From contig CAWJWP010000021.1 of NCBI GenBank assembly GCA_963846495.1, forward strand, positions 77,185-141,184: a stretch of DNA of 64,000 nucleotides, given 5' to 3'. The notes under the pieces are model-generated. The model worked only from the letters and a program-made list of their open reading frames with translations. It did no database searches and was not told the DNA's origin. The position numbers and the translations under genes were made by a program. Positions 7,139 through 21,693 of the stretch are shown here, one piece after another; position 1 is the stretch's first letter; each line of letters begins with the position of its first letter. The stretch is from Thermoanaerobaculia bacterium. Lineage in GTDB: Bacteria; Acidobacteriota; Thermoanaerobaculia; Multivoradales; JAIOJS01.

Positions 7139-8184
<1,046 letters not shown>

Positions 8185-8188
<4 letters not shown>

Positions 8189-8517
8189 GCGACGAAGCAG
8201 CCTCTGAAGTGACCTCGATGACGGCGAAGTCGCTCGACGACCTGCGGCCGGGCGACTTCCAGCCGCTCGTCGGCGAGCGCTTCACGGTGGTGCTCAACGA
8301 GGGCGACTTCGGCCTCGAGCTGGTCAACGTGCGCGTGATGCGCTCGCACCGGCGGCGCGAGGAGCCCTTCGCGCTGCTCTTCCGCGGCCCGCAGCAGCCG
8401 GTGCTGCCGCAGCGCATCTACACCGTCGCGCACGCGAAGACCGGCCAGCTGGTGATCTTCCTGGTGCCCGTGCAAGGGACCGGCGAAGGCGTCGAGTACG
8501 AAGCCGTCTTCAATTAG
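8185..8517 (+). CDS. DUF6916-like small protein (partner of tail-collar/GNAT clusters)
   Basis: F..LVGERF, PFALLFRGP...LPQRIY...H...G.L.IFLVPV...YEAVFN pattern; ATG at 8185 overlaps the corrected korB stop. Confidence 0.75.
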
Positions 8518-9973
8518 GCGGTTCGAGCGCGACGGCCGCCGGCTGCGGCGGCGGTAGGGCCGGGCAAGAGAAGGCCGCGGGCGCCGCGAGGCCGCGCTCG
8601 CCATCGCTCTCGATCTCGACGCGGCCCAGACGGTTGGCGGCAGCCAGCGCTGCTTGCGGTCCACCCGCGAGCGCCGGCTCGTGACCGGCGAGCGCCAGCG
8701 CGCTGCTGCCGCGCTGATGCAGTGCCAGAGAAGGCCCGCCGCCGGCGCCTTCGCCGAAGCGGTTCTCAGCCAGCGCCAGGCAGGCGCGGCTCTCGTCCCG
8801 CGTTTCCAGGAGGAGCGCCGGGTAGCGCACCTCGCCGGTGCTGGCGCCGCTCGCGAGGTCGTTGTCGCGCGCGGCCAGCGCCAGAGCGGCCTGCGCGGCG
8901 GCGACGGCATGGACAGCTTCCGCCCGCTGGCCGGCCAGGCGGTTCCCGACCAGCGTCACCTTGCCCTCGGCGTGGTCGCCGAGCAGCACGACGACGCCGC
9001 GCGCCGTGCCGGCGCCGCCGATGGCGTTGGCCGTGAGCTGCGCGTCGACGTGTGCGCGGCCGGAGGCTGAGACTGTGAGCCCCGTCTCGCGCGCCAGCAG
9101 GTCGTTGCCGCGGGCGGCGATCTCGAGCACGCTCGACTCGCGTGCCACGGCGCTCACCACCGTCACCGCCTGCTCGGCCGGCGCGCCGATGGGACCGCTG
9201 CCGGCGAGGTCGAGGCGGAGCTTGCCCTCGCCCTCGGCAGCGAGGTCGAGGGCGTTGCCGGGCAGCGCCTCGAACGAGACGGCGGTAGCCGTCAGCAGCA
9301 GCACGGCATCGGCGCCAGCGCGCACGACGATTCCCTCGCCGGTGACCGCGACCCCCTCGAGCTCGATCGTCCCTTGGCTGCTCGTGCCGTCGACCTTCAG
9401 CGCCGGGGCGACGGCGCTGCCGTGCAGCTCGCTGTTCTCGACGCGAACGACGCCGCGTGGATCGCGCAGCAGCACGCCGCCGTCGATGCGCAAGCCGGCA
9501 AGGAGCACGTCACCGACGCGGTTGCCGGAGACCGCGCCGGCGCCGCCGTGCAGCTCGAGGCCCTCGACACGGGCGTGGTCGGCCAAGACCACTGCCGGTC
9601 CTGCGCCGCCGTCGATCAGCGGCCGCTCGCCGGCACCAAACGCCTCGTCACCGGCAGCGGCGAGGGTGGCACCGCTGCCGACCAGCCGCTGGTATGCGCG
9701 CAGGCGGATGCCGCCGAGGCCGCGCGCAGTGCCGTCGCCCCGGAAGACGTAGATGGTGTCGCCGACGTCGGCGGCGCGCTCGGCGCGCGCCAGGCGGTCG
9801 AAGGGCGCCACCACCGAGCCGTCGCCATCCGGCGCCGCGGTGTTGTCGACGTACCAGGTGCGGGCGGGATGCGCCGGCTTGCGCGCCAGCGGCTCGATCG
9901 CCGAGGCGGCGCTCGGCAGGAGCGCGACGACGAGGGCGGCAGCGGCGGCGCGGTGGGGAAGAGAGGTCGCCAT
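8510..9973 (-). CDS. Secreted right-handed beta-helix protein, paralog of the C-terminal part of the giant adhesin
   Basis: Signal peptide (..LLPSAASA); WYVDNTAAPDGDGS..PFDRL...GDTIYVFRGDG beta-helix cap; repeated N-x-I/L strands. Confidence 0.7.
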   Translation of the reverse strand: MATSLPHRAAAAALVVALLPSAASAIEPLARKPAHPARTWYVDNTAAPDGDGSVVAPFDRLARAERAADVGDTIYVFRGDGTARGLGGIRLRAYQRLVGSGATLAAAGDEAFGAGERPLIDGGAGPAVVLADHARVEGLELHGGAGAVSGNRVGDVLLAGLRIDGGVLLRDPRGVVRVENSELHGSAVAPALKVDGTSSQGTIELEGVAVTGEGIVVRAGADAVLLLTATAVSFEALPGNALDLAAEGEGKLRLDLAGSGPIGAPAEQAVTVVSAVARESSVLEIAARGNDLLARETGLTVSASGRAHVDAQLTANAIGGAGTARGVVVLLGDHAEGKVTLVGNRLAGQRAEAVHAVAAAQAALALAARDNDLASGASTGEVRYPALLLETRDESRACLALAENRFGEGAGGGPSLALHQRGSSALALAGHEPALAGGPQAALAAANRLGRVEIESDGERGLAAPAAFSCPALPPPQPAAVALEPPN

Positions 9974-10167
9974 GCGCAGCGTCCGAACCCGCGCATGGTG
10001 GAGATGCCGCCGGCGAACGCTCGTTGGGCGCGGGGCGGCGACCCTATCAAACCGCCGCGCCTGCGGCCGTGACCGGCATCACGCCGCGGCGCGGCCTGCC
10101 GCTGGGCTCAGCGCGATCGCGCTTCGGCTCGGCACGACGCCACACGCGCGGGCGAAGCGCCGTCGCC

Positions 10168-10452
10168 TCAGCGCGATGCCAGCACGCGCTTCCAGGCCGG
10201 CATGCGCTCCACGTACTCGGCGACGAACCAGCAGCTGGGCACGACCTTCAGCCCTTCGGCCTCGGCCCATTGGAGCGCTGCCTCGACGACGCGGGCGGCG
10301 ATGCCGCGGCCGCGCAGCGCCGGTGGCGTGTAGGTGTGGACGAAGGCGACCGTCGAATCGTCGAGCCGTCGATAGACGAGGTGCGACGCCTGGCCGTCGC
10401 GGTCGAGCGTGAAGCGCCGCTGCGCCTCGTCATGGACGATCTCGGAAGCCAT
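10168..10452 (-). CDS. Small GNAT acetyltransferase (YjdJ-like)
   Basis: HTYTPPALRGRGIAARVV...GLKVVPSCWFV. Confidence 0.88.
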   Translation of the reverse strand: MASEIVHDEAQRRFTLDRDGQASHLVYRRLDDSTVAFVHTYTPPALRGRGIAARVVEAALQWAEAEGLKVVPSCWFVAEYVERMPAWKRVLASR

Positions 10453-10535
10453 CGCGTACCTCCTCGCGGCTCGCGCTGCAAGCGCCGCGCCGGTCTCGGC
10501 GACTCGCGGCGGCGCGAGTCGATGTCGCGAGAGCT

Positions 10536-11027
10536 TCAGCCCGCGCCGCCGCCCACCGGCCGCTCGAGCAGCAGGTAGACGCCCTTGTCCTCGCGGAAGA
10601 CGAAGCTCAGCCGGTGGTAGAGGCGCAGCGCCGGGTTGAAGCGCTCGACGTGGACGCTCACCGGCTTGCCCGCGGCGTCCGCTTCGGCGAAGAGCTCCGC
10701 CAGCAGCGCGCCGCCCAGCCCGCGGCCGCGGTGCTCCGGCAGCAGACTGATGTCGACGATGCGCACCTCGTTCTCCCAGCGCGCCACGTAGAGACGGCCG
10801 GCCGGCTCGCCGTCGACCTCGATGACGTCGAAGCTCGAGCCGGCGTAGTTCTCCTGGTACCAGGCGTGCTGCGCCTCGAACTGTTGGCGCACGAACGCCT
10901 CCTTCTGCTCCGCCGGCCAGTCGACGCCGGCGAGCTCCTCCTCGCGCGTGGTGGCGTAGAGGCGGAAGAGGAAGGGGAGGTCGGCGTCGGAGATCGGACG
11001 CAGCCGCAGCGGCTCGGGAACGCGCAA
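10536..11027 (-). CDS. GNAT N-acetyltransferase of the type linked to tail-collar gene triplets
   Basis: LYATTREEEL...QQFEAQH..Y, IVDISLLPEHRGRGLG, NPALRLYHRL. The TTG start is uncertain. Confidence 0.88.
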   Translation of the reverse strand: MRVPEPLRLRPISDADLPFLFRLYATTREEELAGVDWPAEQKEAFVRQQFEAQHAWYQENYAGSSFDVIEVDGEPAGRLYVARWENEVRIVDISLLPEHRGRGLGGALLAELFAEADAAGKPVSVHVERFNPALRLYHRLSFVFREDKGVYLLLERPVGGGAG

Positions 11028-11042
11028 GCCGGTGATGCCCGC

Positions 11043-12017
11043 TCAGCGTTCGGCGACGATCGGCTCGAAGCTCACCATCAACGACACCAGCTCGACCGGC
11101 CGCCCTTGCCCTGCCTTCGGCGTCGGCAGCGTGCGCGCGGCCGACCAGGTGTCGGGCGCCAGCCCGAGCAGGTAGACGCCGCGCTGGAGCTTGGGCCGCC
11201 CGGCGAACCAGTCGACGGTGAAGCTGGTGAGGAAGCGCCCGCCGACCGGTCCCGGCGCCGGCGACACCAGCGACGGCCGCCGGTGGAGCGGGTTGTGCGG
11301 CGCCGGCGTCGTCTCGAGCAGCAGGTCGAGCGCGCCGTCGGCGCCGAGCGGCGCGATGAAGCTGATCGGCGGCGCCGGATCGGGCGCCGGCCGGCTCTTG
11401 TAGCCCCAGGCGACGAACGGCAGCTCGCCGACGTTGCGGCCGTGCTCGGGGGACGGGAAGTGGACGGTGAGGTAGGCGTTCCTGACGTGGGTCGGGTTGG
11501 GGATCGGGTAGAGGCCGTGCACGCGCACACGCACCAGCTCGTTAGCGGCGCGCTGGTCGCCGGCGATGAGCGAGGCCGCCGGCACCACGCTGGCGGGCTC
11601 CGGCGGGCGCTCGCGCTCGCGTCGCACACCGCGGTTGAGCGCCGCGGCGGTGACGCGCTTGAAGCCGCGCCAGGTTTCGCTGCCCTCGACGAAGCCGACC
11701 GACATCGGCCGCAGCAGATCGGCCGCGGCCCCCGCCTCGTCTTGAGCGCGGGCAACGCCCGGCAGCGTCGGGAGCAACGCCGCCGCGCCCCCCCAGGCGA
11801 GGAGGTCGCGGCGGCGCAGGCGGGGACCGCGAGGATCGCCGCCCGGCGGATCGCCGAGCGGCGCGCGGACGTCGTCGAGGCCGGTGAGCGCGCCGCCCAC
11901 CGGCCTCACGGTCACTTCGGATCGTCGAGACGGCCGGCGGCTCCGCAGGGGCGGGCCGCCGTCCTCTTCGCTGCCTTCGTCACGGTCGGGCTGGCGACGC
12001 TCGCTCCTCGCAGACAT
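11043..12017 (-). CDS. Hypothetical protein with twin-arginine-like signal
   Basis: LRRRDLLAWGGAAALLPTLPGVARA-Q; co-oriented within the operon. The true start may be downstream of 12017. Confidence 0.6.
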   Translation of the reverse strand: MSARSERRQPDRDEGSEEDGGPPLRSRRPSRRSEVTVRPVGGALTGLDDVRAPLGDPPGGDPRGPRLRRRDLLAWGGAAALLPTLPGVARAQDEAGAAADLLRPMSVGFVEGSETWRGFKRVTAAALNRGVRRERERPPEPASVVPAASLIAGDQRAANELVRVRVHGLYPIPNPTHVRNAYLTVHFPSPEHGRNVGELPFVAWGYKSRPAPDPAPPISFIAPLGADGALDLLLETTPAPHNPLHRRPSLVSPAPGPVGGRFLTSFTVDWFAGRPKLQRGVYLLGLAPDTWSAARTLPTPKAGQGRPVELVSLMVSFEPIVAER

Positions 12018-12076: not shown

Positions 12077-12601
12077 CTAACCCCGCGGCGGGAACACGCC
12101 CTGGAGGGCGATGCAGAAGTAGAAGGTCAGGTACGGCTGCAAGTTGTTGTGCGGCTGATCGCCACCGGCCGGGGCCAGCGCTTCCGGCGCCATCGTAACC
12201 AGGCCCGCGTTGGAGGGTTGGTAAGCAGTGGCACCTGTGGATGCCGCCAGGCTGGTCTGCGGTCCGGGGCCGAAGAGGTCGGCGGCGTCCGACGACGCGC
12301 GCAAGGCGTGGCTGTGGGACGGGATCTCGGACTCGAGCAGGGTCACGGTCTCGCTGCCGCCGGTCTCGCCCAGGTCGTGCAGCGAGAGGCCGGGCCCCTG
12401 GCCGGGGTGCATCGGCGCCCGGCCCTGGAGGTCGGGGAGGGCGAAGTTGCTCTTGCCGTTGCCGCCATAGGTGGTCCCCAGGAGCGAGAACAGCGCCGTG
12501 TTCTGCGACAGCGGCAGCAACTGCCCGTCGCACCACGCCCAGCCCCGGGGGGCGAAGTTGAACGGGAAGATGCGGATCTCGGCTACGAACGGATCGGCCA
12601 T
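12077..12601 (-). CDS. Phage tail-collar domain protein (microcystin-dependent-protein-like), copy 3
   Basis: FVAEIRIF.FNFAPRGWAWCDGQLL..SQNTALFSLLGTTYGG.G...FALPDLQGR; HSH; C-terminal GVFPPRG. Confidence 0.92.
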   Translation of the reverse strand: MADPFVAEIRIFPFNFAPRGWAWCDGQLLPLSQNTALFSLLGTTYGGNGKSNFALPDLQGRAPMHPGQGPGLSLHDLGETGGSETVTLLESEIPSHSHALRASSDAADLFGPGPQTSLAASTGATAYQPSNAGLVTMAPEALAPAGGDQPHNNLQPYLTFYFCIALQGVFPPRG

Positions 12602-12611: not shown

Positions 12612-13118
12612 CTAGGTAGGCGACGGGAAGATGCCGAAGAGCGAGATGATGAAGTTGATGCAGAGGTAGGGCTGGAAATTGGTGTGCGGCTGGCTGCCGC
12701 CCACCGGCGAGATCGCCCCTGGGTTCATGTTGACGTTCGGCGGGTCCGCGATGTAGATCGAGATGGTGCCGTCCGTCGTGGAGACGACGTTGGCCGCCGG
12801 ATTGGGAGTCGTACCGGTGCCCGTCGACGCCAGCAGCGGGTGGCTGTGGGCGGGGATCTGGTTCACCGTCAACGTGATCTCTTCGGCGCCGCCGGTCTCG
12901 GCGAGGATGAAGCCGTTGCCCTGGTGGAGTGGGATGCGCCCGCGCAGGTCGGGCAGCGCGAAGGTCGACTCACCGTCGCCGCCGTAGGTGGTGCCGATGA
13001 GCTGGAACAGCGTCTCGTTCTCGCTGATCGGCAGCAGCTGCCCCTCGCAGAACATCCAGCCGGCAGGGGCGAAGTTGCCGGCGAACATGCGGATCTCACC
13101 GACGTAGGGTTGTGCCAT
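12612..13118 (-). CDS. Phage tail-collar domain protein, copy 2
   Basis: YVGEIRMFAGNFAPAGWMFCEGQLL...FALPDLRGR; HSH; C-terminal GIFPSPT. Confidence 0.92.
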   Translation of the reverse strand: MAQPYVGEIRMFAGNFAPAGWMFCEGQLLPISENETLFQLIGTTYGGDGESTFALPDLRGRIPLHQGNGFILAETGGAEEITLTVNQIPAHSHPLLASTGTGTTPNPAANVVSTTDGTISIYIADPPNVNMNPGAISPVGGSQPHTNFQPYLCINFIISLFGIFPSPT

Positions 13119-13131: not shown

Positions 13132-13632
13132 CTAGTTCGGGCTGGGGAAGATGCCCTGCAGGGCGATGCAGAAGCTGAGGGTGAGGAACGGCTGCATGTT
13201 CAGGTGCGCTTGGCTGCCGCCGACGTTGGTGACCGAGCCCGGCGTCAACGAGGTCAGGGTGTTCGCCGCGTGGTAGGTGTTGTTCACCGGCGCCAGGAAG
13301 GTGTTGGTCGGCAGCGCCTGAGTGCCGGTCGAGGTGGGGGAAGCGTTGAGCACGTGAGTGTGCGTCGGGATCTCGGCGATGCTCAGGGTATGGGCCTGCT
13401 CGCCGCCGCGCTCGCCGAGCGTGTGCCCGCTGCCGACGTGGATCGGCGTGCGGCTGCGCAGGTCGGGCAGCGCGAAGTTCACCCTCCCGTCACCACCGAA
13501 GGTGGTGCCGAGCAGGGAGAACAGCGCCTGGTTCTGGTTGATCGGCAACAGTTGCCCGTTGCACAACGCCCACCCCTTAGGTGCGAACACGAAGCTCATG
13601 ATGCGGATCTCGGACAGGAACGGCTCTGCCAT
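13132..13632 (-). CDS. Phage tail-collar domain protein, copy 1
   Basis: FLSEIRIMSFVFAPKGWALCNGQLL...FALPDLRSR; HTH; C-terminal GIFPSPN; GAAAGGAGGG RBS upstream. Confidence 0.92.
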   Translation of the reverse strand: MAEPFLSEIRIMSFVFAPKGWALCNGQLLPINQNQALFSLLGTTFGGDGRVNFALPDLRSRTPIHVGSGHTLGERGGEQAHTLSIAEIPTHTHVLNASPTSTGTQALPTNTFLAPVNNTYHAANTLTSLTPGSVTNVGGSQAHLNMQPFLTLSFCIALQGIFPSPN

Positions 13633-13725: not shown

Positions 13726-16700
13726 TCAGGGACAGCCCCCGCCGGTGCCGAGCCAGCCGCCGCCGGTGGGGACGGTGTTGGTCGCCGACCCGCTGGGCGC
13801 ACCCGCCGGGTTGTTGTTGTTCTGGGCGAAGGTGACTACCGCGGCGTCGTCGTTGTTGGCGCCGGCGTAGCCGGGGAGGCGGACCGTTGTCGACTGCCGC
13901 TGACGGAGGCGGAAGTCGGTGCCGCCGTCGGTGCCGGAGCCGACGAGGGAGTTCCTCGCCGCGCCCGCGCCGCCGAAGGTGAGGCAGACCTGGTAGGTCT
14001 CGCCGGGGAGCGTGCCGCTGTTGAGCTGGAAGCCGTTCTTGGCAAAGATCATCGTGCCGGGGTTGGTGACGGTGTTGCCGGTCACCGTCGCCTTGAGCGA
14101 GCCGCTGCCGACGGTGGCGGTACCGCCCGCTTGGACGATGATGCCGAAGTTGTTGAACTGGCGGATGGTGTTGCCGGTGATGGTGGTGGTGTGCGAGCCG
14201 GTCTCCGCCAGGATGACCGAGATGCCGGAGCCGGCGGCCGAACCGGAGTTGGCGGTCGCCGCGACGCCGATCTGGTTGCCGCTGATGGTGCCGGTGAAGG
14301 TGCCGGCGCCGGAGCCCTTGGTGACGCCGATGGCCGTGCCATTGGAGTCCCGCATGACGTTGTTCGAGATGTTGTAGGTGGCGGTGGTGTTGCTGCCCGC
14401 CGCGCCTCCCGTCAGGCGAATGCCGCCGCCGCCGCTCACCACGCTGGGGTGCGCGTTGGTGATGATGTTGTTGCTGAAGATGAGGTCGGCGCTGGCGGTG
14501 CCGAGCAGGTTGAGCTGGAAGTGGTCGCCGCGCGAGGAGGTGAAGTCGCCGTTCTGCACGGTGACGTTGGTGACCGCGGTGTTCTGGCCCTCGACGAGGA
14601 TGCCGTCGCTGCCGAAGCCGTTGCTGTTGGCGCCGATCGTCACGTTGTCGAAGGTGATGCGGTTGAGGGTGCCGGTGGTGTTGACGACGGTGAAGTTGTC
14701 CTCGTGGCCGCCGCTGATCGAGCTGTTGGTGACCGAGGCCGAGCCGGTGAGCTCGGTGAAGCGGACCGAGGAGTCGTCGGTGGCGTCGTTGTCGCCGTTG
14801 ACGCCGTTGATGGTGGTGTTGTCCATCGTGAAGTTGACCACCGAGCTGCCGCGGATGGCGAAGTCGGTGAAGTCGTTGAGCTGCATGTCCTCGAGGCTGA
14901 CGTCGCGCGTCGAGGTGAGGCTGATGCCGGTGGCGCAGCGGCGGATGGTGCCGCCGGTGCCGGCGCCGCCGGTGCCCTTCACCTTCAGACCGCCGGAGGC
15001 GCCGGTGGTGTTGAGGAGGATGCCGTTGGTCGGGCCCGAGCCGGGCGTTCCCGCGCTGATGCTGCGGAATTCCAAGTTGTTGGCGCTGATCGTCGTATTG
15101 GCGACGTTGAGCGCGGTGCCGGTGCTGGTGGTGATCGTGTTGACCAGGGCGCCGGTCGCCCCTGGAGCGCAGGGGTTCTCGTCGCAGACCTCGATGGTGC
15201 CGCCGCCGGTGGCGGCGAAGGCAGGCTGGCCGCCGGTGCTGAGGCTGAGGCCGCCGCGGAAGGTGACGGTGGCGCCGGTGTTGGTGGTGAGCGACACGCC
15301 TTGGCCGGTGTCGGTGATCGCACCGGAGAAGGTCACCGTCGAGCCGGTGTCCGCGTTGTTGACGACCACGGAGCGCGCCGTGGCGGAGCTGTTGTTGATG
15401 GTGCCGTTGTAGACGGCGGTCAGCACCGTGGTGCCGGCGGCGCTGTTGTCGATGCCGAAGGCGCGGCCGATGCCGGCGGTCTTGGTGATGGAGCTGCCCG
15501 TGGGGGCGCGGAACTGGCCGGCGACGGTGGTGAAGTCGACGCCCGAGGTGGAGAGGGTGGTCGGCGAGGCGGTGATCTGCGCCAGCCGCAGGTCGATGGT
15601 GGCATTGTCGACCGCGACCGCGGCGCCGTTGTTGCCCACCATCGTGGAGGTGCCGGTGTTGTCCGGCGGTGCCGCCACCACCTGAATGCTGGTCCCTGCC
15701 GCGCCGGTGAAGATGCCGGTGCCGCTCAGGGCGAGAGCGAAGCCGGACGAGAAGACGTCGAGGTCGGTGTAGCTAAGGGCACCGGTGATCCCCGTCATCC
15801 ACAGGCCGCCCTCGTTGAGCCCCGTGCCCACCGGGTTGCCGGACGCGCCGATCACGGTGGTTCCGCCGGCGACGGGTTGCAGGTTGGCGGTGCCGAGATC
15901 GGCGTCGAAGACGGCGGTGGCGACCCGGATGCCCGAGCCGGCGGTGTTCCCGCTCACCACGTTGTCGTCGAAGGTAGTGATGGCGAGGGTGCCGGTGCCG
16001 GTCTCCGCGACGTCGACACCGTTGCCGGTGGCGGTGACGGTGTTGTCGTGCAGCGCCAGCACGCTGTTGCCGGTGCTGTTGATGTTGATGTCGATGCCTT
16101 CCGAGGTGGCGCCGCTGATGATGTCCTCGCTGATCCTGATGCCCACCAGGTTGCCGCCGCTCGAGGTGACGTCGATGGCGTTGGAGGTGGCGCCGGTGGC
16201 GGAGAGGTCGAGGCCGCGGATCTCGACGTTCTGACGGTTACCCGCGGTGGCGGTCACGTTGACCGTGTTGGTGCTCGCCGCGGTGCTCTGGATGCGGGCG
16301 TGGTTGGTGAGCGTCACCACGTTGGGGAAGCCGGGGAGGTCGAGGTCGATGCCCTGGCCCCACAGCTTCTGGCCATCGAGGAGCGAGATGCTGCCGCTGT
16401 GCGGCGTGGCGCCGGTGTTGCCGCGGAAGACGTAGATGAAGTCGCCGTTGTTGGTGGTCGCGGCGTTGAACTCGGCGATGGTGTCGAACGGGTTGTTCGA
16501 GCGGCCGGTGTCGCCGGGGCCCGGGTTGTTGGCATCGACGACGTCATGGATGTACCAGACGCGCGGCCCGACCGCGATGTTGACGGTCTGGTTCGACGGC
16601 GTGACGGTGTCGGTCAGCTGGTAGCCGAAGGTGTCCGCCGCAATGGAGCCCGTGGCGGGCACGAAGTGGAAGTTGCCGTTCGCGTCGATGGTGAAGGGGC

Positions 16701-19700
16701 CGCCGTTGGTCGAGTTGCCGGAGGCGGCGACGACGGTGGCGGCGGCCGGACCATCGGGATCGGTCGGTGCGCACTTGGTGAGGACGGTGACGGGGTCCGG
16801 CCAGAAGGCGACACCCGGGGTGGTGGCGGTCCCGACGTGGAGCTGGGTGTTGCCCGGCGTCGCGTAGTTGACGGTGTTGGTGCACACCGGCGGGTCGTTG
16901 ACCGGCGTCACCGTGACGATCTTGGTGGCGACGTTGCTCGGGTCGGTGCCGTCGTTGACCTGGAAGCTGATGGTGCGGTTCGCCGCGTCCGGCGCCTGGT
17001 CGAGGTTGTTGTAGGTCACCGACTGCAGGCAGGTCTGATAGGTGGCGACCGGTTGGCTGCCGCTGATGTTGAGCGTCGCGGTGCCGGCGCCGCCCACCGT
17101 GAGGCCGGCGCAGGCGGTGAAATTGAGCTGCTCGAAGGCGCCGTCCGGCGGCCCCACGGGAAGGGCGATCGACACCGTCGCCGAGGTGAGGTTGGCGGTG
17201 TCGACGTCGCTCACCGTGACGCCGGCATCGATGACGACCGCGCCGGCGTCCTCGGTGAAGTTGGTGGTACCGCCGGTCGTCGTCACCACCGGCGGGTCGT
17301 TGACCGGCACCACGTCGACGGTCTTGTCGCCGTTGTTGCTGTTGGTGGTGCCGTCGTTGGCGACGAAGCGCACGATGCGGTTGGGCAGGTCGGTGGGGTT
17401 CTGCGAGGTGTTGTTGTAGGTCACCGACTGGAAGCACGTCTGGTAGGTCGCGGGCGGCTGGCTGCCGCTGATGGTGAGCGCGGCCGTGCCGGCGCCGCCC
17501 ACGGTCAGGCCGGCGCAGGAGGTGGCGTTGAGCTGCTCGGCGGCGCCGTTCTGGACGTTGGTGATGGTCACCGTCGCGGAGGCGAGGTTGGTGCTGTCGG
17601 CGTCGGTCACCGTGATGGCGGCGTCGACGACCACGGCACCGCCGTCCTCGGTGAAGGTGGTGATGCCGCCGCTGGGAGTGACCACCGGGCCGTCGTCCTG
17701 CGGCACCACGTCGACGTTCTTGTCGCCGTTGTTGCTGTTGGTGGTGCCGTCGTTGGCGACGAAGCGCACGATGCGGTTGGGCAGGTCGGTGGGGTTCTGC
17801 GAGGTGTTGTTGTAGGTCACCGACTGGAAGCACGACTGGTAGGTCGCCGGCGGCTGGCTACCCGTGATGGTGAGCGTGGAGGTGCCGGCGCCGCCGACGG
17901 TGAGACCCGCGCAGGCACCGGCCGCCAGCTGCTCGGCGGCGCCGTCCTGCACGTTGGTGATCGTCACTGTGGCCGACGCGAGGTTCGTGCTGTCGGCGTC
18001 GGTCACCGTGATGGCGCCGTCGACGACGACCGCGCCACCATCCTCGGTGAAGGTGGTGTTGCCGCCGCTGGGGGTGACCACCGGGCCGTCGTTGACGGGT
18101 ACCACGTCGACGGTCTTGTCGCCGTTGTTGCTGTTGCTGGTGCCGTCGTTGACGACGAAGCGGACGATCCGGTCGGGCAGATCGGTGGGGTTCTGCGACG
18201 TGTTGTTGTAGGTCACCGTCTGGAAGCAGGCCTGGTAAGTCGCCGGCGGCTGGCTGCCGCTGATGCTCAGCGTCGACGTGCCGCCGCCGATCACCGTGAG
18301 GCCGGCGCAGGCGCCGGCTGCCAGCTGCTCGGCGGCGCCGTTCTGGACGTTGGTGATGGTCACCGTCGCCGAGGCGAGGTTGGTGCTGTCGGCGTCGGTC
18401 ACCGTGATGGCGCCGTCGACGACCACCGGTCCGCCGTCCTCGGTGAAGGTGGTGCTGCCGCCGCTGGGGGTGACCACCGGGGCGTCGTCGACGGGCACCA
18501 CGTCGACGGCCTTGTCGCCGTTGTTGCTGTTGCTGGTGCCGTCGTTGGCGACGAAGCGGACGATGCGGTTGGGCAGGTCGGTAGGGTTCTGCGAGGTGTT
18601 GTTGTAGGTCACCGACTGGAAGCAGGTTTGGTAAGTGGCGACCGGCTGGCTGCCGCTGATGGTGAGAGTCGAGGTGCCACCGCCGCCCACCGTCAGGCCG
18701 GCGCAGGAGGTGGCGTTGAGCTGCTCCGCCGCACCGTCCTGCGGGTTGGTGATCGTCACCGTCGCCGAGGCGAGGTTGGTGCTGTCGACGTCGGTCACCG
18801 TGATGGCGCCGTCGACGACCACCGCACCACCATCCTCGGTGAAGGTGGTGTTGCCGCCGCTGGGAGTGACGACCGGTGCATCGTCTTGCGGCACCACGTC
18901 GACGGCCTTGTCGCCGTTGTTGCTGTTGTTGGTGCCGTCGTTGGCGACGAAGCGGACGATGCGGTTGGGCAGGTCGGTCGGGTTCTGCGCGGTGTTGTTG
19001 TAGGTCACCGACTGGAAGCACGCCTGGTAGGTCGCCGGCGGCTGGCTGCCGCTGATGGTGAGCGCGGAGGTACCGGCGCCACCGACGGTGAGGCCGGCGC
19101 AGGCACCCGCCGCCAGCTGCTCGGCAGCGCCGTCCTGCACGTTGGTGATCGTCACCGTCGCCGAGGCGAGGTTGGTGCTGTCGATGTCGGTGACCGTGAT
19201 GGCGCCGTCGACGACGACTGGTCCGCCATCTTCGGTGAAGGTGGTGTTGCCGCCGCTGGGAGTGACCACCGGGGCGTTGTCGACCGGCACCACGTCGACG
19301 GTCTTGTCGCCGTTGTTGCTGTTGAGGGCGCCGTCGTTGACGACGAAGCGGACGACGCGGTCGGGCAGGTCGGTGGGGTTCGGCGAGGTGTTGTTGTAGG
19401 TCACCGATTGCAGGCAGGCCTGGTAGGTCGCGGGCGGTTGGCTGCCGCTGATGTTGAGGGTCGACGTTCCGGCGCCGCCTACGGTCAGGCCGGCGCAGGC
19501 ACCCGCCGCCAGTTGCTCGGCGGCGCCATCCTGCACGTTGGTGATGGTCACCGTCGCCGAGGCGAGGTTGGCGCTGTCGACGTCGGTCACCGTGATGGCG
19601 CCGTCGACGACGACCGCGCCGCCGTTCTCGGTGAAGGTGGTGTTGCCGCCGCTGGGAGTGACCACCGGGGCGTCGTTCTGCGGCACCACGTCGACGGCCT

Positions 19701-21693
19701 TGTCACCGTTGTTGCTGTTGTTGGCGCCGTCGTTGGCGACGAAGCGGATGATGCGGTCGGGCAGGTCGGTGGGGTTCTGCGAGGTGTTGTTGTAAGTCAC
19801 CGTCTGGAAGCACGCCTGATAGGTCGCTGGCGGCTGGGCGCCGGTGATGGTGAGCGTGGCGGTGCCGGCGCCACCGACGACGAGGCCGGCGCAGGCACCC
19901 GCCGCCAGCTGCTCGGCACCGACGTCCTGCACGTTGGTGATCGTCACCGTCGCCGAGGCGAGGTTCGGATCGTCGGCGTCGGTCACCGTGATGCCGGCGT
20001 CGACGACCACCGGTCCGCCATCCTCGGTGAAGGTAGTGGTGCCGGCGCTGGGCGTGACCACCGGAGCGTCGGGGTTGGGAGCGATGGTCACCGTCTTGTC
20101 GCCGTTGTTGCTGTTGAGAGCGCCGTCGTTGGCGACGAAGCGGATGACACGGTCGGGCGCGGTCGTCGGGTTCTGCGACGTGTTGTCGTAGGTCACCGAC
20201 TGGAAGCACGCCTGATAGGTCGCGGGCGGCTGGGCGCCGCTGATGGTGAGCGCCCCGGTGCCGGCGCCACCGACCGTCAGGCCGGCGCAGCTGGTGGCGT
20301 TGAGCACCTCGGCGGCACCGTCCTGCACGTTGGTGATCGTCACCGTCGCCGAGGCGAGGTTCGGACTGTCGACATCGGTCACCGTGATGCCGGCGTCGAC
20401 GACGACGGGCCCGCCGTCTTCGGTGAAGGTGGTGTTGCCGGCCGTCGGCGTCACCACCGGCGCGTCGTTGCCCGGCGCCACCGTCACGGTCTTGTCGCCA
20501 TTGTTGCTGTTGGCGGAACCGTCGTTGGCGACGAAGCGCACCACGCGCGACGGCGCCGCGGTGGGGTTCTGCGAGCTGTTGTCGTAGGTGACCGACTGGA
20601 AGCAGGTTTGATAAGTCGCCGGCGGCTGGCTGCCGGTGAGGGTGAGCGTGGCGGTGCCGGCGCCGCCGACGGTGAGGCCGGCGCAGGCCGTCGCGTTGAG
20701 TATCTCGGCGGCGCCGTCCTGCGGATTGGTGATCGTCACCGTTGCCGAGGCGAGGTTGGGACTATCGGTGTCGGTCACCGTGACGCCGCCGTCGACGACG
20801 ACCGGGCCGCCGTCCTCGGTGAACGGCGTGCTGCCGGCCGTCGTGGTGACGACGGGCGGCGTGTTGAACAGCAGCGAGGCGTCGATGCGGAAGTAGACCT
20901 GCGTCGCCGGGACGTCAGTCCGTGCGTAGAGCGACGCGATGTCGTCGCCGTCGTTCGTGGCGCTGGGGTCATGGGCGACGCGGAAACCGATCGGCCACTC
21001 GTCGAGGGTGTTGCCGTCGAGGTCCCCGAGTAGGGCAAAGGCCGCGCCGCCGGCGCAGAGCACCAGCGCCACGGTCAGCAAGGCGCGCCGAGGCCGCCGC
21101 CGTAGCTTGAGCGTCGCCGCGCCGGCCAGCAGCAGCAACAGGACGAGCAAGCCCCACTGCCCGAGCGTCGGGATCTCGGCGACACTGCCGGTGATGAAGA
21201 ATTGGATCGGCGCCCCGTTGGCCGTGCCGTCGGTCGTGAACAGGGTGTCGCTGCCGCCGTTGGCGTTCTGCGCGAAGGCCCCGATGCGGATGCACCGACG
21301 CTGCTGCTCGTTCTGGCAGGGATGAAGGGGCGGCGGCGGAAGGGAAGCCGGGATCGGCCAGTAGGTCTCGACGACGTTGAAGCCGGGGAGGTCGCCGTTG
21401 CCGATGCCGACCGGATGGTCGGTGCCGTCGAAGAAGACCTGCGTGTTGCTGCAGTCGAATCCCTCGATCTGCGTCACCATCGCGGCGTTGGGCCCGGTCG
21501 TGGTGTCGACCGTGGTGACCACGCGCTGGTCGTAGCCCATGAAGCCGGAGGCGAAGTCGTTGCACCCCGTTGCCGGATCGTTGTCGAAGTCGATGAAGAT
21601 GGTGAGGTCCGACTGCACCGCGGCCGCGGGAGCGGCGGCGACGATCGTGACCAGGGCGGCGAACAGGGCACGGACGAGCGGGATGCGTCTCAT
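13726..21693 (-). CDS. Giant surface adhesin-like protein (2655 aa): signal peptide, N-domain, internal IPTL motif + two hydrophobic helices, ten Ig/cadherin-like repeats, beta-helix C-terminal region
   Basis: Long uninterrupted ORF with GGAGGG RBS; IPTLGQWGLLVLLLLLAG..RRR at about aa 174; 132-aa FTEDGG...RFVANDG repeats; Thr/Gly/Asn-rich beta-helix tail. Confidence 0.9.
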   Translation of the reverse strand: MRRIPLVRALFAALVTIVAAAPAAAVQSDLTIFIDFDNDPATGCNDFASGFMGYDQRVVTTVDTTTGPNAAMVTQIEGFDCSNTQVFFDGTDHPVGIGNGDLPGFNVVETYWPIPASLPPPPLHPCQNEQQRRCIRIGAFAQNANGGSDTLFTTDGTANGAPIQFFITGSVAEIPTLGQWGLLVLLLLLAGAATLKLRRRPRRALLTVALVLCAGGAAFALLGDLDGNTLDEWPIGFRVAHDPSATNDGDDIASLYARTDVPATQVYFRIDASLLFNTPPVVTTTAGSTPFTEDGGPVVVDGGVTVTDTDSPNLASATVTITNPQDGAAEILNATACAGLTVGGAGTATLTLTGSQPPATYQTCFQSVTYDNSSQNPTAAPSRVVRFVANDGSANSNNGDKTVTVAPGNDAPVVTPTAGNTTFTEDGGPVVVDAGITVTDVDSPNLASATVTITNVQDGAAEVLNATSCAGLTVGGAGTGALTISGAQPPATYQACFQSVTYDNTSQNPTTAPDRVIRFVANDGALNSNNGDKTVTIAPNPDAPVVTPSAGTTTFTEDGGPVVVDAGITVTDADDPNLASATVTITNVQDVGAEQLAAGACAGLVVGGAGTATLTITGAQPPATYQACFQTVTYNNTSQNPTDLPDRIIRFVANDGANNSNNGDKAVDVVPQNDAPVVTPSGGNTTFTENGGAVVVDGAITVTDVDSANLASATVTITNVQDGAAEQLAAGACAGLTVGGAGTSTLNISGSQPPATYQACLQSVTYNNTSPNPTDLPDRVVRFVVNDGALNSNNGDKTVDVVPVDNAPVVTPSGGNTTFTEDGGPVVVDGAITVTDIDSTNLASATVTITNVQDGAAEQLAAGACAGLTVGGAGTSALTISGSQPPATYQACFQSVTYNNTAQNPTDLPNRIVRFVANDGTNNSNNGDKAVDVVPQDDAPVVTPSGGNTTFTEDGGAVVVDGAITVTDVDSTNLASATVTITNPQDGAAEQLNATSCAGLTVGGGGTSTLTISGSQPVATYQTCFQSVTYNNTSQNPTDLPNRIVRFVANDGTSNSNNGDKAVDVVPVDDAPVVTPSGGSTTFTEDGGPVVVDGAITVTDADSTNLASATVTITNVQNGAAEQLAAGACAGLTVIGGGTSTLSISGSQPPATYQACFQTVTYNNTSQNPTDLPDRIVRFVVNDGTSNSNNGDKTVDVVPVNDGPVVTPSGGNTTFTEDGGAVVVDGAITVTDADSTNLASATVTITNVQDGAAEQLAAGACAGLTVGGAGTSTLTITGSQPPATYQSCFQSVTYNNTSQNPTDLPNRIVRFVANDGTTNSNNGDKNVDVVPQDDGPVVTPSGGITTFTEDGGAVVVDAAITVTDADSTNLASATVTITNVQNGAAEQLNATSCAGLTVGGAGTAALTISGSQPPATYQTCFQSVTYNNTSQNPTDLPNRIVRFVANDGTTNSNNGDKTVDVVPVNDPPVVTTTGGTTNFTEDAGAVVIDAGVTVSDVDTANLTSATVSIALPVGPPDGAFEQLNFTACAGLTVGGAGTATLNISGSQPVATYQTCLQSVTYNNLDQAPDAANRTISFQVNDGTDPSNVATKIVTVTPVNDPPVCTNTVNYATPGNTQLHVGTATTPGVAFWPDPVTVLTKCAPTDPDGPAAATVVAASGNSTNGGPFTIDANGNFHFVPATGSIAADTFGYQLTDTVTPSNQTVNIAVGPRVWYIHDVVDANNPGPGDTGRSNNPFDTIAEFNAATTNNGDFIYVFRGNTGATPHSGSISLLDGQKLWGQGIDLDLPGFPNVVTLTNHARIQSTAASTNTVNVTATAGNRQNVEIRGLDLSATGATSNAIDVTSSGGNLVGIRISEDIISGATSEGIDININSTGNSVLALHDNTVTATGNGVDVAETGTGTLAITTFDDNVVSGNTAGSGIRVATAVFDADLGTANLQPVAGGTTVIGASGNPVGTGLNEGGLWMTGITGALSYTDLDVFSSGFALALSGTGIFTGAAGTSIQVVAAPPDNTGTSTMVGNNGAAVAVDNATIDLRLAQITASPTTLSTSGVDFTTVAGQFRAPTGSSITKTAGIGRAFGIDNSAAGTTVLTAVYNGTINNSSATARSVVVNNADTGSTVTFSGAITDTGQGVSLTTNTGATVTFRGGLSLSTGGQPAFAATGGGTIEVCDENPCAPGATGALVNTITTSTGTALNVANTTISANNLEFRSISAGTPGSGPTNGILLNTTGASGGLKVKGTGGAGTGGTIRRCATGISLTSTRDVSLEDMQLNDFTDFAIRGSSVVNFTMDNTTINGVNGDNDATDDSSVRFTELTGSASVTNSSISGGHEDNFTVVNTTGTLNRITFDNVTIGANSNGFGSDGILVEGQNTAVTNVTVQNGDFTSSRGDHFQLNLLGTASADLIFSNNIITNAHPSVVSGGGGIRLTGGAAGSNTTATYNISNNVMRDSNGTAIGVTKGSGAGTFTGTISGNQIGVAATANSGSAAGSGISVILAETGSHTTTITGNTIRQFNNFGIIVQAGGTATVGSGSLKATVTGNTVTNPGTMIFAKNGFQLNSGTLPGETYQVCLTFGGAGAARNSLVGSGTDGGTDFRLRQRQSTTVRLPGYAGANNDDAAVVTFAQNNNNPAGAPSGSATNTVPTGGGWLGTGGGCP
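16900..20860 (-). repeat. Ten tandem ~396-bp (132-aa) intragenic repeats
   Basis: Ten successive PVVT..FTE(D/N)(G/A)G units counted in the translation; shadow ORFs on the + strand recur at 396-bp spacing. Confidence 0.9.

What the first reader, a model, noticed from the sequence alone, without database searches (positions are those of the whole stretch)
8185..21693. Prophage-free 'adhesin + tail-collar triplet + GNAT + DUF6916' surface/secretion system
Seen: a co-oriented run of giant adhesin, three tail-collar paralogs (10 and 13 nt apart), a Tat-type protein, two GNATs and a beta-helix protein, converging on a DUF6916-like gene. No capsid, sheath, baseplate, terminase or integrase gene is recognisable in the 64 kb. 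Known: tail-collar domains (PF07484) come from phage fibres, and such 'microcystin-dependent protein' triplets recur beside a GNAT and a large surface protein in many bacteria. I know of no established function for them. Inference: a domesticated fibre-tip module that is acylated or chaperoned by the GNAT and DUF6916 and works with the giant surface protein in adhesion, recognition or delivery.
Basis: partly seen in the sequence, partly recalled or inferred. Interest (0 to 1): 0.82.

Follow-up and report, generated by a model that had tools for sequence, protein, structure and literature searches.

The report
Conserved cellular tail-collar triplet cassette
Three small phage-fibre-tip-like proteins, a giant secreted protein, an acetyltransferase and a protein of unknown function form a gene set that recurs in many bacterial phyla away from any phage; it probably builds a three-part surface recognition knob, though its function is untested.

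Summary
Window 8185-21693 carries DUF6916, a 487-aa secreted protein, two GNATs, a twin-arginine-leader protein, three PF07484 collar paralogs (10 and 13 nt apart) and a 2655-aa secreted repeat protein. No phage gene was found among the window ORFs scanned.

The linkage is real. In 80 loci from seven phyla, 76 have at least three collars, 68 this GNAT, 69 DUF6916 and 63 a giant secreted ORF beside the triplet. Gene order col1-col2-col3 holds in 67 of 80. The second GNAT and the 487-aa protein are genus-specific extras.

Natural single-chain fusions carry one module of each paralog, many behind a Sec leader. A virophage collar triplet is a demonstrated 1:1:1 heterotrimer. I therefore read the triplet as a heterotrimeric fibre-tip knob with a hypervariable head that works outside the cytoplasm alongside the giant protein.

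Half of the loci add a twin-arginine-leader partner, so Tat piggy-back export is my candidate route; it is unproven and not universal. The roles of the GNAT and DUF6916 are inferred only.

My literature searches found no characterisation of the cassette. Verdict: a new variant of a known kind.

The parts
8218..8517 (+). DUF6916 protein (about 99 aa; the ORF could also start at 8185). Core cassette member. Leaderless.
   Evidence: PF21880, E 2e-28. Start inferred from the alignment. It is the only PF21880 match in the genome. A DUF6916 gene is found in 69 of 80 cross-phylum loci.
8510..9973 (-). 487-aa protein with a signal-like N-terminus. It is a paralogue of the start of the giant's C-terminal region. 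Genus-specific add-on.
   Evidence: No Pfam, NCBIfam or PHROG family. BLASTP to giant aa 1711-1905 gives E 1e-8 at 29% identity. Full-length relatives occur only in L021, L022 and L024, all of the same genus.
10168..10452 (-). Acetyltransf_CG small GNAT (94 aa). Genus-specific add-on.
   Evidence: PF14542, E 1e-24. tblastn hits only in L021-L024.
10536..11027 (-). GNAT acetyltransferase (163 aa). Core cassette member.
   Evidence: PF00583, E 1e-11. Weak rimI and N-terminal-acetyltransferase likeness. Present in 68 of 80 cross-phylum loci, at a median of 718 nt from the triplet.
11043..12017 (-). Twin-arginine-leader protein ('Tat324' family). The start codon is uncertain. The RRRDLL plus hydrophobic stretch sits about 68 aa into the ORF.
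   Evidence: Sequence read. No Pfam family. The family was found in 19 of 34 in-order and 15 of 80 cross-phylum loci, nearly all with an RR leader. It is related to a proteobacterial 250-aa RR protein (hhalign 87%, E 4e-6). TatC is present in the genome.
12077..12601 (-). Collar paralog col3 (174 aa). No signal peptide.
   Evidence: PF07484, E 1.6e-27. Orthogroup assignment. Invariant HxH.
12612..13118 (-). Collar paralog col2 (168 aa). No signal peptide.
   Evidence: PF07484, E 1.3e-29. 62-88% identical to orthologs in seven phyla. The col2 clade holds 111 of 111 members, support 0.994.
13132..13632 (-). Collar paralog col1 (166 aa). No signal peptide.
   Evidence: PF07484, E 1e-26. The col1 clade holds 110 of 110 members, support 0.999.
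13726..21693 (-). Giant secreted protein (2655 aa). Layout: Sec-type leader, small N-domain, internal sorting motif, repeats, then a C-terminal region.
   Evidence: Translation. Only weak Ig and cadherin Pfam hits. A giant ORF family lies beside the triplet in 63 of 80 loci.
21094..21174 (-). Internal IPTL-type exosortase sorting motif in the giant (aa about 174-200). It is followed by a TM stretch, RRRPRR and a second signal-like stretch.
   Evidence: TIGR04174 at 30.2 bits, the best hit in the genome. NF033207 midcut-by-XrtH scores 35.5 bits, below its cut-off of 45. XrtH is present elsewhere in the genome. The same layout occurs in giants of 17 loci.
17005..20823 (-). 9.6 tandem copies of a 396-nt (132-aa) repeat inside the giant gene.
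   Evidence: Tandem Repeats Finder, 85% matches.
13729..16563 (-). C-terminal region of the giant (aa 1711-2655). It looks repetitive and beta-helix-like by eye. It is the part most shared with giants of other loci.
   Evidence: aa 2101-2500 is covered in 38 of 80 loci by BLASTP. No Pfam beta-helix family was hit.

Best explanation
This is a cellular, non-viral 'collar-triplet cassette'.

**Shown**
- Three ancient paralogs (col1, col2, col3, about 170 aa each) are kept in 1:1:1 number and in fixed order.
- They sit beside a giant Sec-secreted protein, one GNAT clade and DUF6916, in at least seven bacterial phyla.

**Inferred, strongly**
- The three proteins form one heterotrimeric fibre-tip knob, like a phage or virophage receptor-binding tip.
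- The knob has a conserved collar scaffold, an invariant HxH pair in each chain (a likely metal site on the threefold axis) and a hypervariable head of about 40 residues that binds a variable ligand.

**Inferred, moderately**
- The knob acts outside the cytoplasm together with the giant protein. Here the giant is an XrtH-type 'midcut' surface protein. The joint role would be recognition or adhesion.

**Inferred, weakly**
- The leaderless subunits must assemble before export. They then leave folded through Tat by riding on a twin-arginine-leader partner, which here is the 324-aa protein and elsewhere is an RR-leader DUF6916.
- The leaderless DUF6916 and the GNAT act in the cytoplasm as assembly or maturation factors. 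One option is that the GNAT caps the conserved Met-Ala/Ser N-termini.
For: **Linkage**
- In the same order, 32 of 41 genomes have DUF6916 and 33 of 41 have a collar match. Eight of the nine genomes without DUF6916 have no collar match, and the ninth has only a sub-cut-off one.
- By my tally of those tables, 25 of the 32 have the two within 6 kb and one has them 17.8 kb apart.
- Across phyla (best 80 of 593 confirmed stretches): 76 of 80 loci have at least 3 collars, 68 the GNAT, 69 DUF6916, 65 both and 63 a giant ORF family.
- In metagenome loci with at least 2.5 kb on both sides, 19 of 24 triplets have both the GNAT and DUF6916.

**Heterotrimer**
- The order col1-col2-col3 holds in 67 of 80 loci, with HMM margins of at least 25 bits.
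- In a tree of 330 collars, col1 and col2 are clades (support 0.999 and 0.994) and col3 forms two pure clades.
- Of the best 120 longer homologs, 30 hold three tandem modules and 42 hold two.
- 9 of the 17 leader-bearing three-module proteins read col2-col1-col3.
- Each third of fusion P0004 matches a different separate gene in five genomes at 49-56% identity.
- Virophage DSLV2 has three consecutive PF07484 proteins that co-purify as a complex of about 55 kDa and bind Synechococcus cells (PMC12724248, passages read).

**Scaffold and head**
- Column conservation is 0.8-0.95 over residues 1-90 and 0.36-0.49 over about 100-140.
- HxH is invariant in all three paralogs.
- Profile hits in the PDB are phage fibres only.

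**Outside the cytoplasm**
- 17 of the 30 three-module fusions have Sec-like leaders.
- 13 of the 120 listed longer homologs carry PF07589, the PEP-CTERM motif.
- L109 has a collar with an RR/lipobox-like leader.
- The giants carry signal-like leaders.

**Tat**
- An RR-leader DUF6916 occurs in 25 of 80 loci and the Tat324 family in 15 of 80. They never occur together, giving a union of 40 of 80.
- TatC is present in the genome.

**Accessory role of the GNAT and DUF6916**
- In the one fusion whose context I could read (L119), a Sec-leader tri-collar sits 47 nt before a 2475-aa T9SS giant. There is no GNAT or DUF6916 in 21.7 kb.

**Expression of a look-alike**
- In Acaryochloris marina, three 'phage tail collar' genes, a hypothetical gene and an acetyltransferase (AM1_3686-3690) change together by log2 -3 to -4. 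This rests on annotation in the tables of PMC11633204 and was not checked by sequence.
Against: - None of the three collars has any export signal.
- Half of the cross-phylum loci (40 of 80), and 15 of the 34 in-order loci fetched (which include the whole 'MSEPF' sub-lineage), show no RR-leader partner with my tests. Tat piggy-back therefore cannot be the general route.
- My strict leader scan is only 2.2-fold enriched in cassettes over flanks and includes false calls.
- The fold of DUF6916 is unknown: no PDB relative and no Atlas result.
- The GNAT is generic by sequence.
- The 'no GNAT or DUF6916 beside a fusion' argument rests on one locus.
- The 80 loci are the best-scoring of 593 and many share ancestry or transfer, so the counts are not independent.
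- The giant ORF family was clustered partly through repeat domains, so orthology of the giants is weaker than that of the collars. Only 38 of 80 share aa 2101-2500.
- The HxH metal reading is recalled from T4 gp12 and gp37, not tested here.
Confidence: 0.55

Rival explanations
1. The collars stay in the cytoplasm and do an intracellular job, for example sensing, regulation or helping the giant protein before export. The fibre-tip likeness would then be only ancestry.
For: - There is no signal peptide on any of the three paralogs in any of the loci read.
- The collars are very strongly conserved, at 65-71% mean column identity across phyla. That is unusual for exposed binding proteins.
- The GNAT and DUF6916 are leaderless too.
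- 40 of 80 loci have no RR-leader partner.
Against: - Sec-leader three-module fusions exist (17 of 30).
- PEP-CTERM-bearing collar proteins exist (13 of 120).
- L109 has an RR-leader collar.
- Every characterised relative is an external receptor-binding tip (PDB hits; PMC12724248).
- A hypervariable head fits an external ligand.
Confidence: 0.2
2. The three paralogs form three separate homotrimers, giving three knobs with three specificities, rather than one heterotrimer.
For: - The T4 gp12 and gp37 tips are homotrimers (recalled; PDB hits 1ocy and 5iv5).
- Each paralog keeps its own HxH pair.
- Some fusions read as repeats of one class by my HMMs: '333' in 3 and '33' in 6.
Against: - 1:1:1 retention and fixed order hold in 67 of 80 loci.
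- 9 of 17 leader-bearing three-module fusions carry one module of each class (mapping).
- The virophage triplet is shown to be a 1:1:1 complex.
Confidence: 0.15
3. The cluster is a decayed prophage, tailocin or contractile-injection remnant, and the neighbours are chance.
For: - PF07484 and the PHROG hits are tail families.
- 728 of 50,697 phage records hold a homolog.
- Four IMG/VR contigs carry cellular-type triplets. One of them lies beside collagen-like 'tail fiber' genes.
Against: - No phage or injection family was hit in the window ORFs scanned.
- All phage homologs are under 60% identical (best about 39%), with 1-2 places per record. Cellular orthologs are 62-88% identical.
- DUF6916 is absent from the phage records and from 80 of 80 viral loci.
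- The partners are conserved across seven phyla.
- The four viral contigs are 2-10.6 kb. On the three I scanned (L199-L201) no capsid or terminase family was hit; L202 was not scanned.
Confidence: 0.04
4. The triplet, GNAT and DUF6916 form a self-contained unit, for example a secreted lectin or bacteriocin-like knob. The giant protein is only a frequent neighbour.
For: - 17 of 80 loci show no member of the giant ORF family.
- The giant lies upstream in some loci and downstream in others.
- The giants differ greatly in domain make-up: IPTL midcut here, a T9SS tail in L119 and RTX-like in Actinomycetota.
Against: - The giant family lies a median of 24 nt from the triplet in 63 of 80 loci.
- The fusion in L119 keeps the giant while losing the GNAT and DUF6916.
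- Many of the 17 'missing' loci are cut by contig ends (one search lists the flank lengths).
Confidence: 0.15

Closest known systems
Virophage DSLV2 tripartite tail proteins (J Virol 2025, PMC12724248; passages read)
   Same: - Three consecutive genes of similar small size, each with PF07484.
- A conserved collar plus a variable head patch. The paper places it at residues 120-145. Here the variable stretch is about 100-140.
- Shown there to form a 1:1:1 heterotrimer that binds cell-surface material.
   Different: - Those genes lie in virophage genomes beside capsid genes. Here the setting is cellular.
- The partners here are a GNAT, DUF6916, RR-leader proteins and a giant secreted protein, none of which that paper mentions in the passages I read.
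- I did not measure sequence relatedness to the DSLV2 proteins.
Phage T4 gp12 short tail fibre and gp37 fibre tip; other phage minor tail proteins with a collar domain
   Same: - The collar domain: profile hits to 1ocy, 1pdi, 5iv5 and 8kec.
- HxH aligned with HxH in 8kec.
- Stand-alone proteins of about 160 aa exist in actinophages as 'minor tail protein'.
   Different: - The phage proteins are homotrimers (recalled) and parts of virions.
- Identity to the window's col2 is at most about 39%.
- They occur as one or two copies per phage record, not as an ordered triplet.
RhiB of the Rhizobium leguminosarum rhiABCD operon; Microcystis 'microcystin-dependent protein' annotations
   Same: - Cellular, non-phage proteins with PF07484 and no established function (PMC13133039, passage read).
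- 'Microcystin-dependent protein' is the name JGI gives to many homologs listed.
   Different: - The rhi operon has one collar gene with RhiA and RhiC partners and quorum-sensing control, per the passage read.
- I did not test for RhiA or RhiC relatives here.
Midcut-by-XrtH and IPTL-CTERM exosortase substrates (NCBIfam NF033207, TIGR04174)
   Same: - The giant carries an internal IPTL-type motif followed by a TM stretch and an Arg cluster.
- The genome has XrtH.
   Different: - The NF033207 score is below its cut-off (35.5 against 45).
- XrtH lies on another contig.
- The family description is recalled, not read here.
Tat 'hitchhiker' export of leaderless subunits with a signal-bearing partner (for example hydrogenase small and large subunits; recalled)
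   Same: - Leaderless, probably metal-holding oligomer subunits are encoded beside a twin-arginine-leader protein.
- TatC is present.
   Different: - No evidence here of binding between the RR protein and the collars.
- A partner is found in only about half of the cassettes.

Membership tests
PF07484 phage tail collar domain proteins | Match to the Pfam model above its gathering score | tested here: met
   95.6, 102.4 and 93.1 bits against a cut-off of 24.
PF07484 phage tail collar domain proteins | Trimeric fibre tip with His pairs on the axis (recalled from T4 gp12 and gp37) | tested here: inconclusive
   HxH is invariant in all three paralogs and aligned to HxH of 8kec. Trimer formation could not be modelled.
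Virophage-type tripartite collar heterotrimer | Three consecutive PF07484 genes of like size | tested here: met
   166, 168 and 174 aa, 13 and 10 nt apart.
Virophage-type tripartite collar heterotrimer | 1:1:1 heteromeric complex | not testable with these tools
Indirect support comes from the single-chain fusions with one module of each class.
Virophage-type tripartite collar heterotrimer | Located in a virus genome beside capsid genes | tested here: not met
   No viral family in the window ORFs scanned. The neighbours are korAB, MarR and DinB.
Prophage, tailocin or contractile injection system | Sheath, tube, baseplate, capsid, terminase or integrase genes nearby | tested here: not met
   Pfam scans of the window ORFs found none. 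PHROGs found only the collars and an acetyltransferase. I did not search the whole genome for such families.
DUF6916 (PF21880) | Match above the gathering score | tested here: met
   98.7 bits against a cut-off of 27.
GNAT acetyltransferases (PF00583) | Match above the gathering score | tested here: met
   45.1 bits against a cut-off of 20.7 for 10536-11027. 86.8 bits against a cut-off of 30 for PF14542 at 10168-10452.
Ribosomal-protein or N-terminal acetyltransferases (RimI type) | Match above the NCBIfam equivalog cut-off | tested here: not met
   TIGR01575 scores 25.8 bits against a cut-off of 86.4. This is likeness only.
Tat substrates | Twin-arginine motif followed by an uncharged hydrophobic stretch near the N-terminus | tested here: met
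   RRRDLLAWGGAAALL... in the 324-aa ORF. The leader is conserved in the family. The start codon is uncertain.
Tat substrates | Tat machinery in the genome; export dependent on it | tested here: inconclusive
   TatC is present. Dependence of export on Tat is not testable here.
Midcut-by-XrtH proteins (NF033207) | Match above the curated cut-off | tested here: not met
   35.5 bits against a cut-off of 45.
IPTL-CTERM sorting signal (TIGR04174) with exosortase H | Motif above the cut-off, and XrtH in the genome | tested here: met
   22 bits in hmmscan and 30.2 bits in the genome search, against a cut-off of 20.5. XrtH scores 117.7 bits against a cut-off of 86. The motif is internal, not C-terminal.
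Known anti-phage defence systems (PADLOC) | Any cassette protein matching a PADLOC model | tested here: not met
   0 families for the 7 proteins scanned.

The most novel reading that the evidence does not exclude
A pan-bacterial surface module. A domesticated phage receptor-binding tip became an obligate col1/col2/col3 heterotrimer that is assembled and N-capped in the cytoplasm by a dedicated DUF6916 factor and GNAT. It is carried out folded through Tat on a signal-bearing partner and docked on giant adhesins as their exchangeable, hypervariable recognition head. On this reading DUF6916 would be a new class of fibre assembly or export adaptor, and single-chain Sec-exported fusions would be the evolutionary short cut that makes it dispensable.
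Probability: 0.25. Interest if true: 0.88.

Novelty: new variant of a known kind. Interest (0 to 1): 0.72.

Why it matters
- It gives a first concrete, testable context for DUF6916 and for the many 'microcystin-dependent protein' or 'phage tail protein' annotations in non-phage DNA.
- The cassette occurs in soil, rhizosphere and aquatic lineages from Acidobacteriota to Actinomycetota and has cultured carriers: Chiayiivirga flava, Mesorhizobium, Dyadobacter, Flavobacterium and Nocardioides.
- If the triplet is an exchangeable recognition head for giant surface proteins, it bears on how bacteria recognise surfaces, partners or prey.
- It also bears on how phage receptor-binding parts are domesticated, and on how leaderless oligomers leave the cell.

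Tried and rejected
**Closed or failed tools**
- Structure and complex prediction: structure prediction and complex prediction were closed, so no fold of DUF6916, no trimer model and no binding test exist. Fold search was therefore never used.
- Atlas: the window's DUF6916 and P0213 are not held. The stored homolog P0227 gave no usable hit and has no model.

**Searches that found nothing useful**
- DUF6916 against the PDB by profile: only chance-level hits, E about 1.
- DUF6916 fused forms: none among the 8000 longer candidates scored, which is weak evidence.
- DUF6916 against the Tat324 family by hhalign: unrelated. The idea that the 324-aa protein hides a DUF6916 domain is dropped.
- Other conserved neighbours: the next-largest ORF clusters were antisense shadows of the GNAT, DUF6916 or giant genes.
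- Defence-system reading: no PADLOC match.
- Full-length three-module fusions in 301 sampled Bacteroidota genomes: not found with P0004. Only read-through matches with stops appeared.
- In the metagenome scan only 1 of 80 loci (L119) was a true three-module fusion, so the 'fusion lacks GNAT and DUF6916' point rests on one locus.
- Expression: no RNA holder was listed for window 8100-14100, and read laying was not used.
- The promoter and terminator scan was at chance level (1 and 8 sites against 0.5 and 5.8 expected).

**Literature**
- Four searches found no paper holding DUF6916 or PF21880 and none describing this cassette. One search was swamped by unrelated uses of 'MDPB' and 'MRPB'.
- Supplementary tables were closed. 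Tables S1 and S2 of PMC11633204 might show the whole Acaryochloris operon.
- PMC9881135 (a PilV-collar fusion) and PMC3174227 (collar paralogs under positive selection in Solibacter) were read as passages only. They bear on collars in general, not on this cassette.

**Rows dropped before counts**
- L023 (overlaps L022) and L024 (frameshifted collars) were left out of the HMM and tree inputs.
- Collar ORFs outside 155-190 aa or under 200 bits were left out of the order and tree counts.

Full report
**What is in the window**

The window is GC-rich, about 71%, so I chose genes by third-position GC and by family scans.

On the minus strand from 21693 down to 8510 lie:
- a 2655-aa ORF (13726-21693);
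- three PF07484 collar proteins: col1 13132-13632, col2 12612-13118 and col3 12077-12601, with E 1e-26 to 1e-29 and gaps of 13 and 10 nt;
- a 324-aa ORF with an RRRDLL plus hydrophobic leader (11043-12017, no family);
- a GNAT (10536-11027);
- a small Acetyltransf_CG GNAT (10168-10452);
- a 487-aa protein with a signal-like N-terminus and no family (8510-9973).

Converging on these is DUF6916 (8185/8218-8517, PF21880, E 2e-28). It follows korA and korB on the plus strand.

The rest of the window encodes housekeeping and regulatory proteins. None of the ORFs I scanned hit a capsid, sheath, baseplate, terminase or integrase family. PHROGs recognises only the collars and the GNAT, and PADLOC recognises nothing.

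In the whole 7.05-Mb assembly there are just three PF07484 matches, which are this triplet, and one PF21880 match, 3.9 kb from them.

**The giant protein**

Its translation shows the following, in order:
- a Sec-type leader;
- a domain of about 140 aa;
- an internal IPTL-type exosortase motif with a TM stretch, RRRPRR and a second signal-like stretch;
- about ten 132-aa repeats (396 nt x 9.6 copies);
- a repetitive C-terminal region of about 950 aa.

The internal motif is the best TIGR04174 hit in the genome (30.2 bits). NF033207 'midcut-by-XrtH' scores 35.5 bits, below its cut-off of 45. An exosortase H is encoded on another contig (117.7 bits against a cut-off of 86). The same layout recurs in giants of 17 fetched loci. 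The 487-aa protein resembles the start of the C-terminal region (E 1e-8).

**Linkage within the order**

Homolog names place the genus in Thermoanaerobaculia.

Among 41 genomes of the same order, 32 have DUF6916 and 33 have a collar match. Eight of the nine genomes without DUF6916 have no collar match, and the ninth has only a sub-cut-off one. From those coordinate tables I count 25 genomes with the two within 6 kb, one at 17.8 kb and six unlinked. Two of the six are fragmented assemblies.

tblastn on 34 fetched stretches shows the recurring order giant, col1, col2, col3, [RR-leader protein], GNAT, DUF6916. The Acetyltransf_CG gene and the 487-aa gene appear only in the same genus (L021-L024), so they are local insertions between the GNAT and DUF6916.

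**Linkage across phyla**

A scan of one genome per species with a collar alignment confirmed 593 stretches. The best 80 are 62-88% identical to col2. By their record titles they come from Acidobacteriota, Chloroflexota, Pseudomonadota, Bacteroidota, Verrucomicrobiota, Actinomycetota and Gemmatimonadota.

HMMs built from the in-order genes gave these counts over the 80 loci:

| Feature | Loci of 80 |
|---|---|
| At least three collars | 76 |
| This GNAT clade | 68 |
| DUF6916 | 69 |
| Both the GNAT and DUF6916 | 65 |
| Two DUF6916 copies | 26 |

The median distance from the triplet is 718 nt for the GNAT and 578 nt for DUF6916.

All-against-all clustering found one further conserved neighbour: a family of very large ORFs (median 1978 aa, many cut by the 10-kb flank) in 63 of 80 loci, a median of 24 nt from the triplet. 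Their N-termini look like signal peptides. The part of the window's giant most often shared is aa 2101-2500, in 38 of 80 loci. The other large clusters were antisense shadows.

An independent metagenome sample gave 19 of 24 well-flanked triplets with both the GNAT and DUF6916.

These loci are the top of a ranking and are related by descent or transfer, so the counts show recurrence, not independent events.

**Not a phage feature**

- 728 of 50,697 phage records hold a col2 homolog, but all are under 60% identical (best about 39%). Most are actinophage minor tail proteins, with one or two places per record.
- DUF6916 has no phage match.
- In IMG/VR the best 80 of 334 confirmed stretches are at most 58% identical. 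Of these, 48 have a single collar, none has DUF6916 and one has the GNAT.
- Only four short contigs (2-10.6 kb) carry cellular-type triplets. On the three I scanned (L199-L201) no capsid or terminase family was hit. One shows collagen-like 'tail fiber' paralogs.

**One unit from three paralogs**

Each collar in the 80 loci falls cleanly into one of three classes, with an HMM margin of at least 25 bits. The order 1-2-3 holds in 67 loci and doubled triplets occur in three more.

In a tree of 330 collars, col1 (110 of 110, support 0.999) and col2 (111 of 111, 0.994) are clades. col3 forms two pure clades of 98 and 11.

Among the 120 best longer homologs of col1, my HMMs find three tandem modules in 30 and two in 42. 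Of the 30, 17 have a Sec-like leader, and 9 of those 17 read col2-col1-col3. Each third of fusion P0004 matches a different one of the three separate genes in five genomes, at 49-56% identity.

This is Rosetta-stone evidence that one copy of each paralog makes one structural unit.

It agrees with a published case. In virophage DSLV2, three consecutive PF07484 proteins co-purify as a complex of about 55 kDa, look like 16-nm fibres and bind Synechococcus cells (PMC12724248, passages read).

**Scaffold and head**

- Mean column identity is 65-71% for the collars but 36% for DUF6916.
- Along the collars, residues 1-90 and the last 30 are 0.8-0.95 conserved, while about 100-140 fall to 0.36-0.49.
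- An HxH pair and a later His are invariant in all three. The HxH aligns with one in the phage fibre 8kec.
- From memory, such His pairs hold metal ions on the axis of T4 gp12 and gp37. That step is recalled, not tested.

**Where it acts and how it gets there**

The separate collars have no export signal. Several relatives do:
- Sec-leader fusions;
- collar proteins with PF07589, the PEP-CTERM motif (13 of the 120 listed);
- a fourth collar with an RR/lipobox-like leader in L109.

This favours an extracytoplasmic role.

Many cassettes encode a twin-arginine-leader protein. The family of the window's 324-aa protein occurs in 19 of 34 in-order and 15 of 80 cross-phylum loci. It is related to a proteobacterial 250-aa RR protein (hhalign 87%, E 4e-6). 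In other loci the partner is a second DUF6916 copy with an RR leader, in 25 of 80 (hhalign 99.8% to DUF6916). The two kinds never co-occur, and together they cover 40 of 80 loci. A third RR-leader family sits before col1 in five Bacteroidota loci. TatC is present in the genome.

I therefore propose that the pre-assembled trimer is carried out by Tat on such a partner.

Several results argue against this as a general rule:
- 40 of 80 loci show no partner.
- 15 of the 34 in-order loci, which include the whole 'MSEPF' sub-lineage, show none either.
- My strict leader scan is only 2.2-fold enriched in cassettes over flanks.

**The GNAT and DUF6916**

Both are leaderless. They are almost always adjacent to each other and specific to this context. 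The GNAT is generic by sequence, with weak rimI and N-terminal-acetyltransferase likeness only. DUF6916 has no PDB relative, no longer fused forms, and only 'hypothetical' or 'DUF6916' names among the 120 homologs listed.

The only fusion whose surroundings I could read is L119. It has a Sec-leader tri-collar 47 nt before a 2475-aa giant with a T9SS sorting domain. It is flanked by housekeeping genes, with no GNAT, DUF6916 or RR-family hit in 21.7 kb. That fits the idea that the GNAT and DUF6916 serve assembly or export of the separate subunits, but it is a single case.

The conserved Met-Ala/Ser start of all three collars makes N-terminal acetylation one candidate reaction. This is speculation.

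**Expression and literature**

No RNA run holds the window.

In Acaryochloris marina, three 'phage tail collar' genes, a conserved hypothetical gene and a putative acetyltransferase (AM1_3686-3690, plus AM1_3684) fall together by log2 3-4 in high white light against low far-red light (tables in PMC11633204). By annotation this looks like the same cassette. I could not check it by sequence.

RhiB of Rhizobium is another cellular collar protein of unknown role (PMC13133039).

Four full-text searches found no paper on DUF6916 or on this cassette.

**Verdict**

The cluster is real, phage-free and widely conserved. Its core is giant, col1, col2, col3, GNAT and DUF6916, often with a twin-arginine partner. 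The heterotrimer reading is well supported indirectly. The surface role with the giant is plausible. The Tat route and the GNAT and DUF6916 roles are hypotheses. Structure and complex predictions, which would be the quickest tests, were not available.

Noticed in passing
window 21031-21210 (-), inside the giant gene: Internal IPTL-type exosortase motif followed by a TM stretch, RRRPRR and a second signal-like stretch, as if a small IPTL-CTERM protein were fused in front of a secreted giant. The same layout occurs in giants of 17 fetched loci. XrtH is on another contig (G000:C3).
   Followed up: partly
window 33860-36685 (-) and 37114-38901 (-): A DNA polymerase III alpha paralog (DnaE2-like) lies next to an ImuB-like IMS-family protein. 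This is probably an SOS mutagenesis pair.
   Followed up: no
window 60000-64000: GC drops from about 0.71 to 0.61-0.64. The region encodes an 808-aa FG-GAP repeat protein (60125-62551, -) and a 441-aa protein with no family. It may be acquired DNA.
   Followed up: no
window 27821-31183 (-) and 31201-32181 (-): A 1120-aa protein with an anti-sigma zinc finger, TPR repeats and a CHAT domain lies next to a sigma-70 region-4 protein.
   Followed up: no
L022/L023 (G004:C10:1130000-1164999): In a same-genus genome the cassette is rearranged. DUF6916 is 17.8 kb from the triplet, there is an extra partial copy of the two GNATs, the collars are degraded, and MarR-p423-Aldh is duplicated in inverted orientation.
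   Followed up: no
L036, L095, L106, L114, L199: Two collar triplets in tandem in one locus.
   Followed up: no
L109:5154-5870 (-), Longimicrobium MAG: A fourth collar protein (238 aa) with a twin-arginine/lipobox-like leader lies next to a normal leaderless triplet.
   Followed up: partly
L199:882-8909 (IMG/VR contig, 10.6 kb): Three collagen-like 'tail fiber' paralogs (474-533 aa) sit directly upstream of two collar triplets. No capsid or terminase family was hit on the contig. This may be a three-chain collagen stalk with collar tips.
   Followed up: partly
L119:9947-19205 (+), metagenome contig, GC 0.44: A Sec-leader three-module collar fusion is followed after 47 nt by a 2475-aa giant with a T9SS sorting domain. 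Both lie among oxidative-stress genes, with no GNAT or DUF6916.
   Followed up: yes
P0018, P0032, P0046-P0050, P0072, P0076 and others: Leaderless two-module 'col2-col1' fusions of about 335 aa are common (24 of the proteins classified), for example in Paenibacillus. I did not look at whether a separate col3 gene accompanies them.
   Followed up: no
window 21957-22957 (-): DinB-family and MarR genes lie directly upstream of the giant on the same strand. The only sigma-70-like site in 7900-23100 sits before MarR. MarR is also adjacent in the same-genus locus L023.
   Followed up: no
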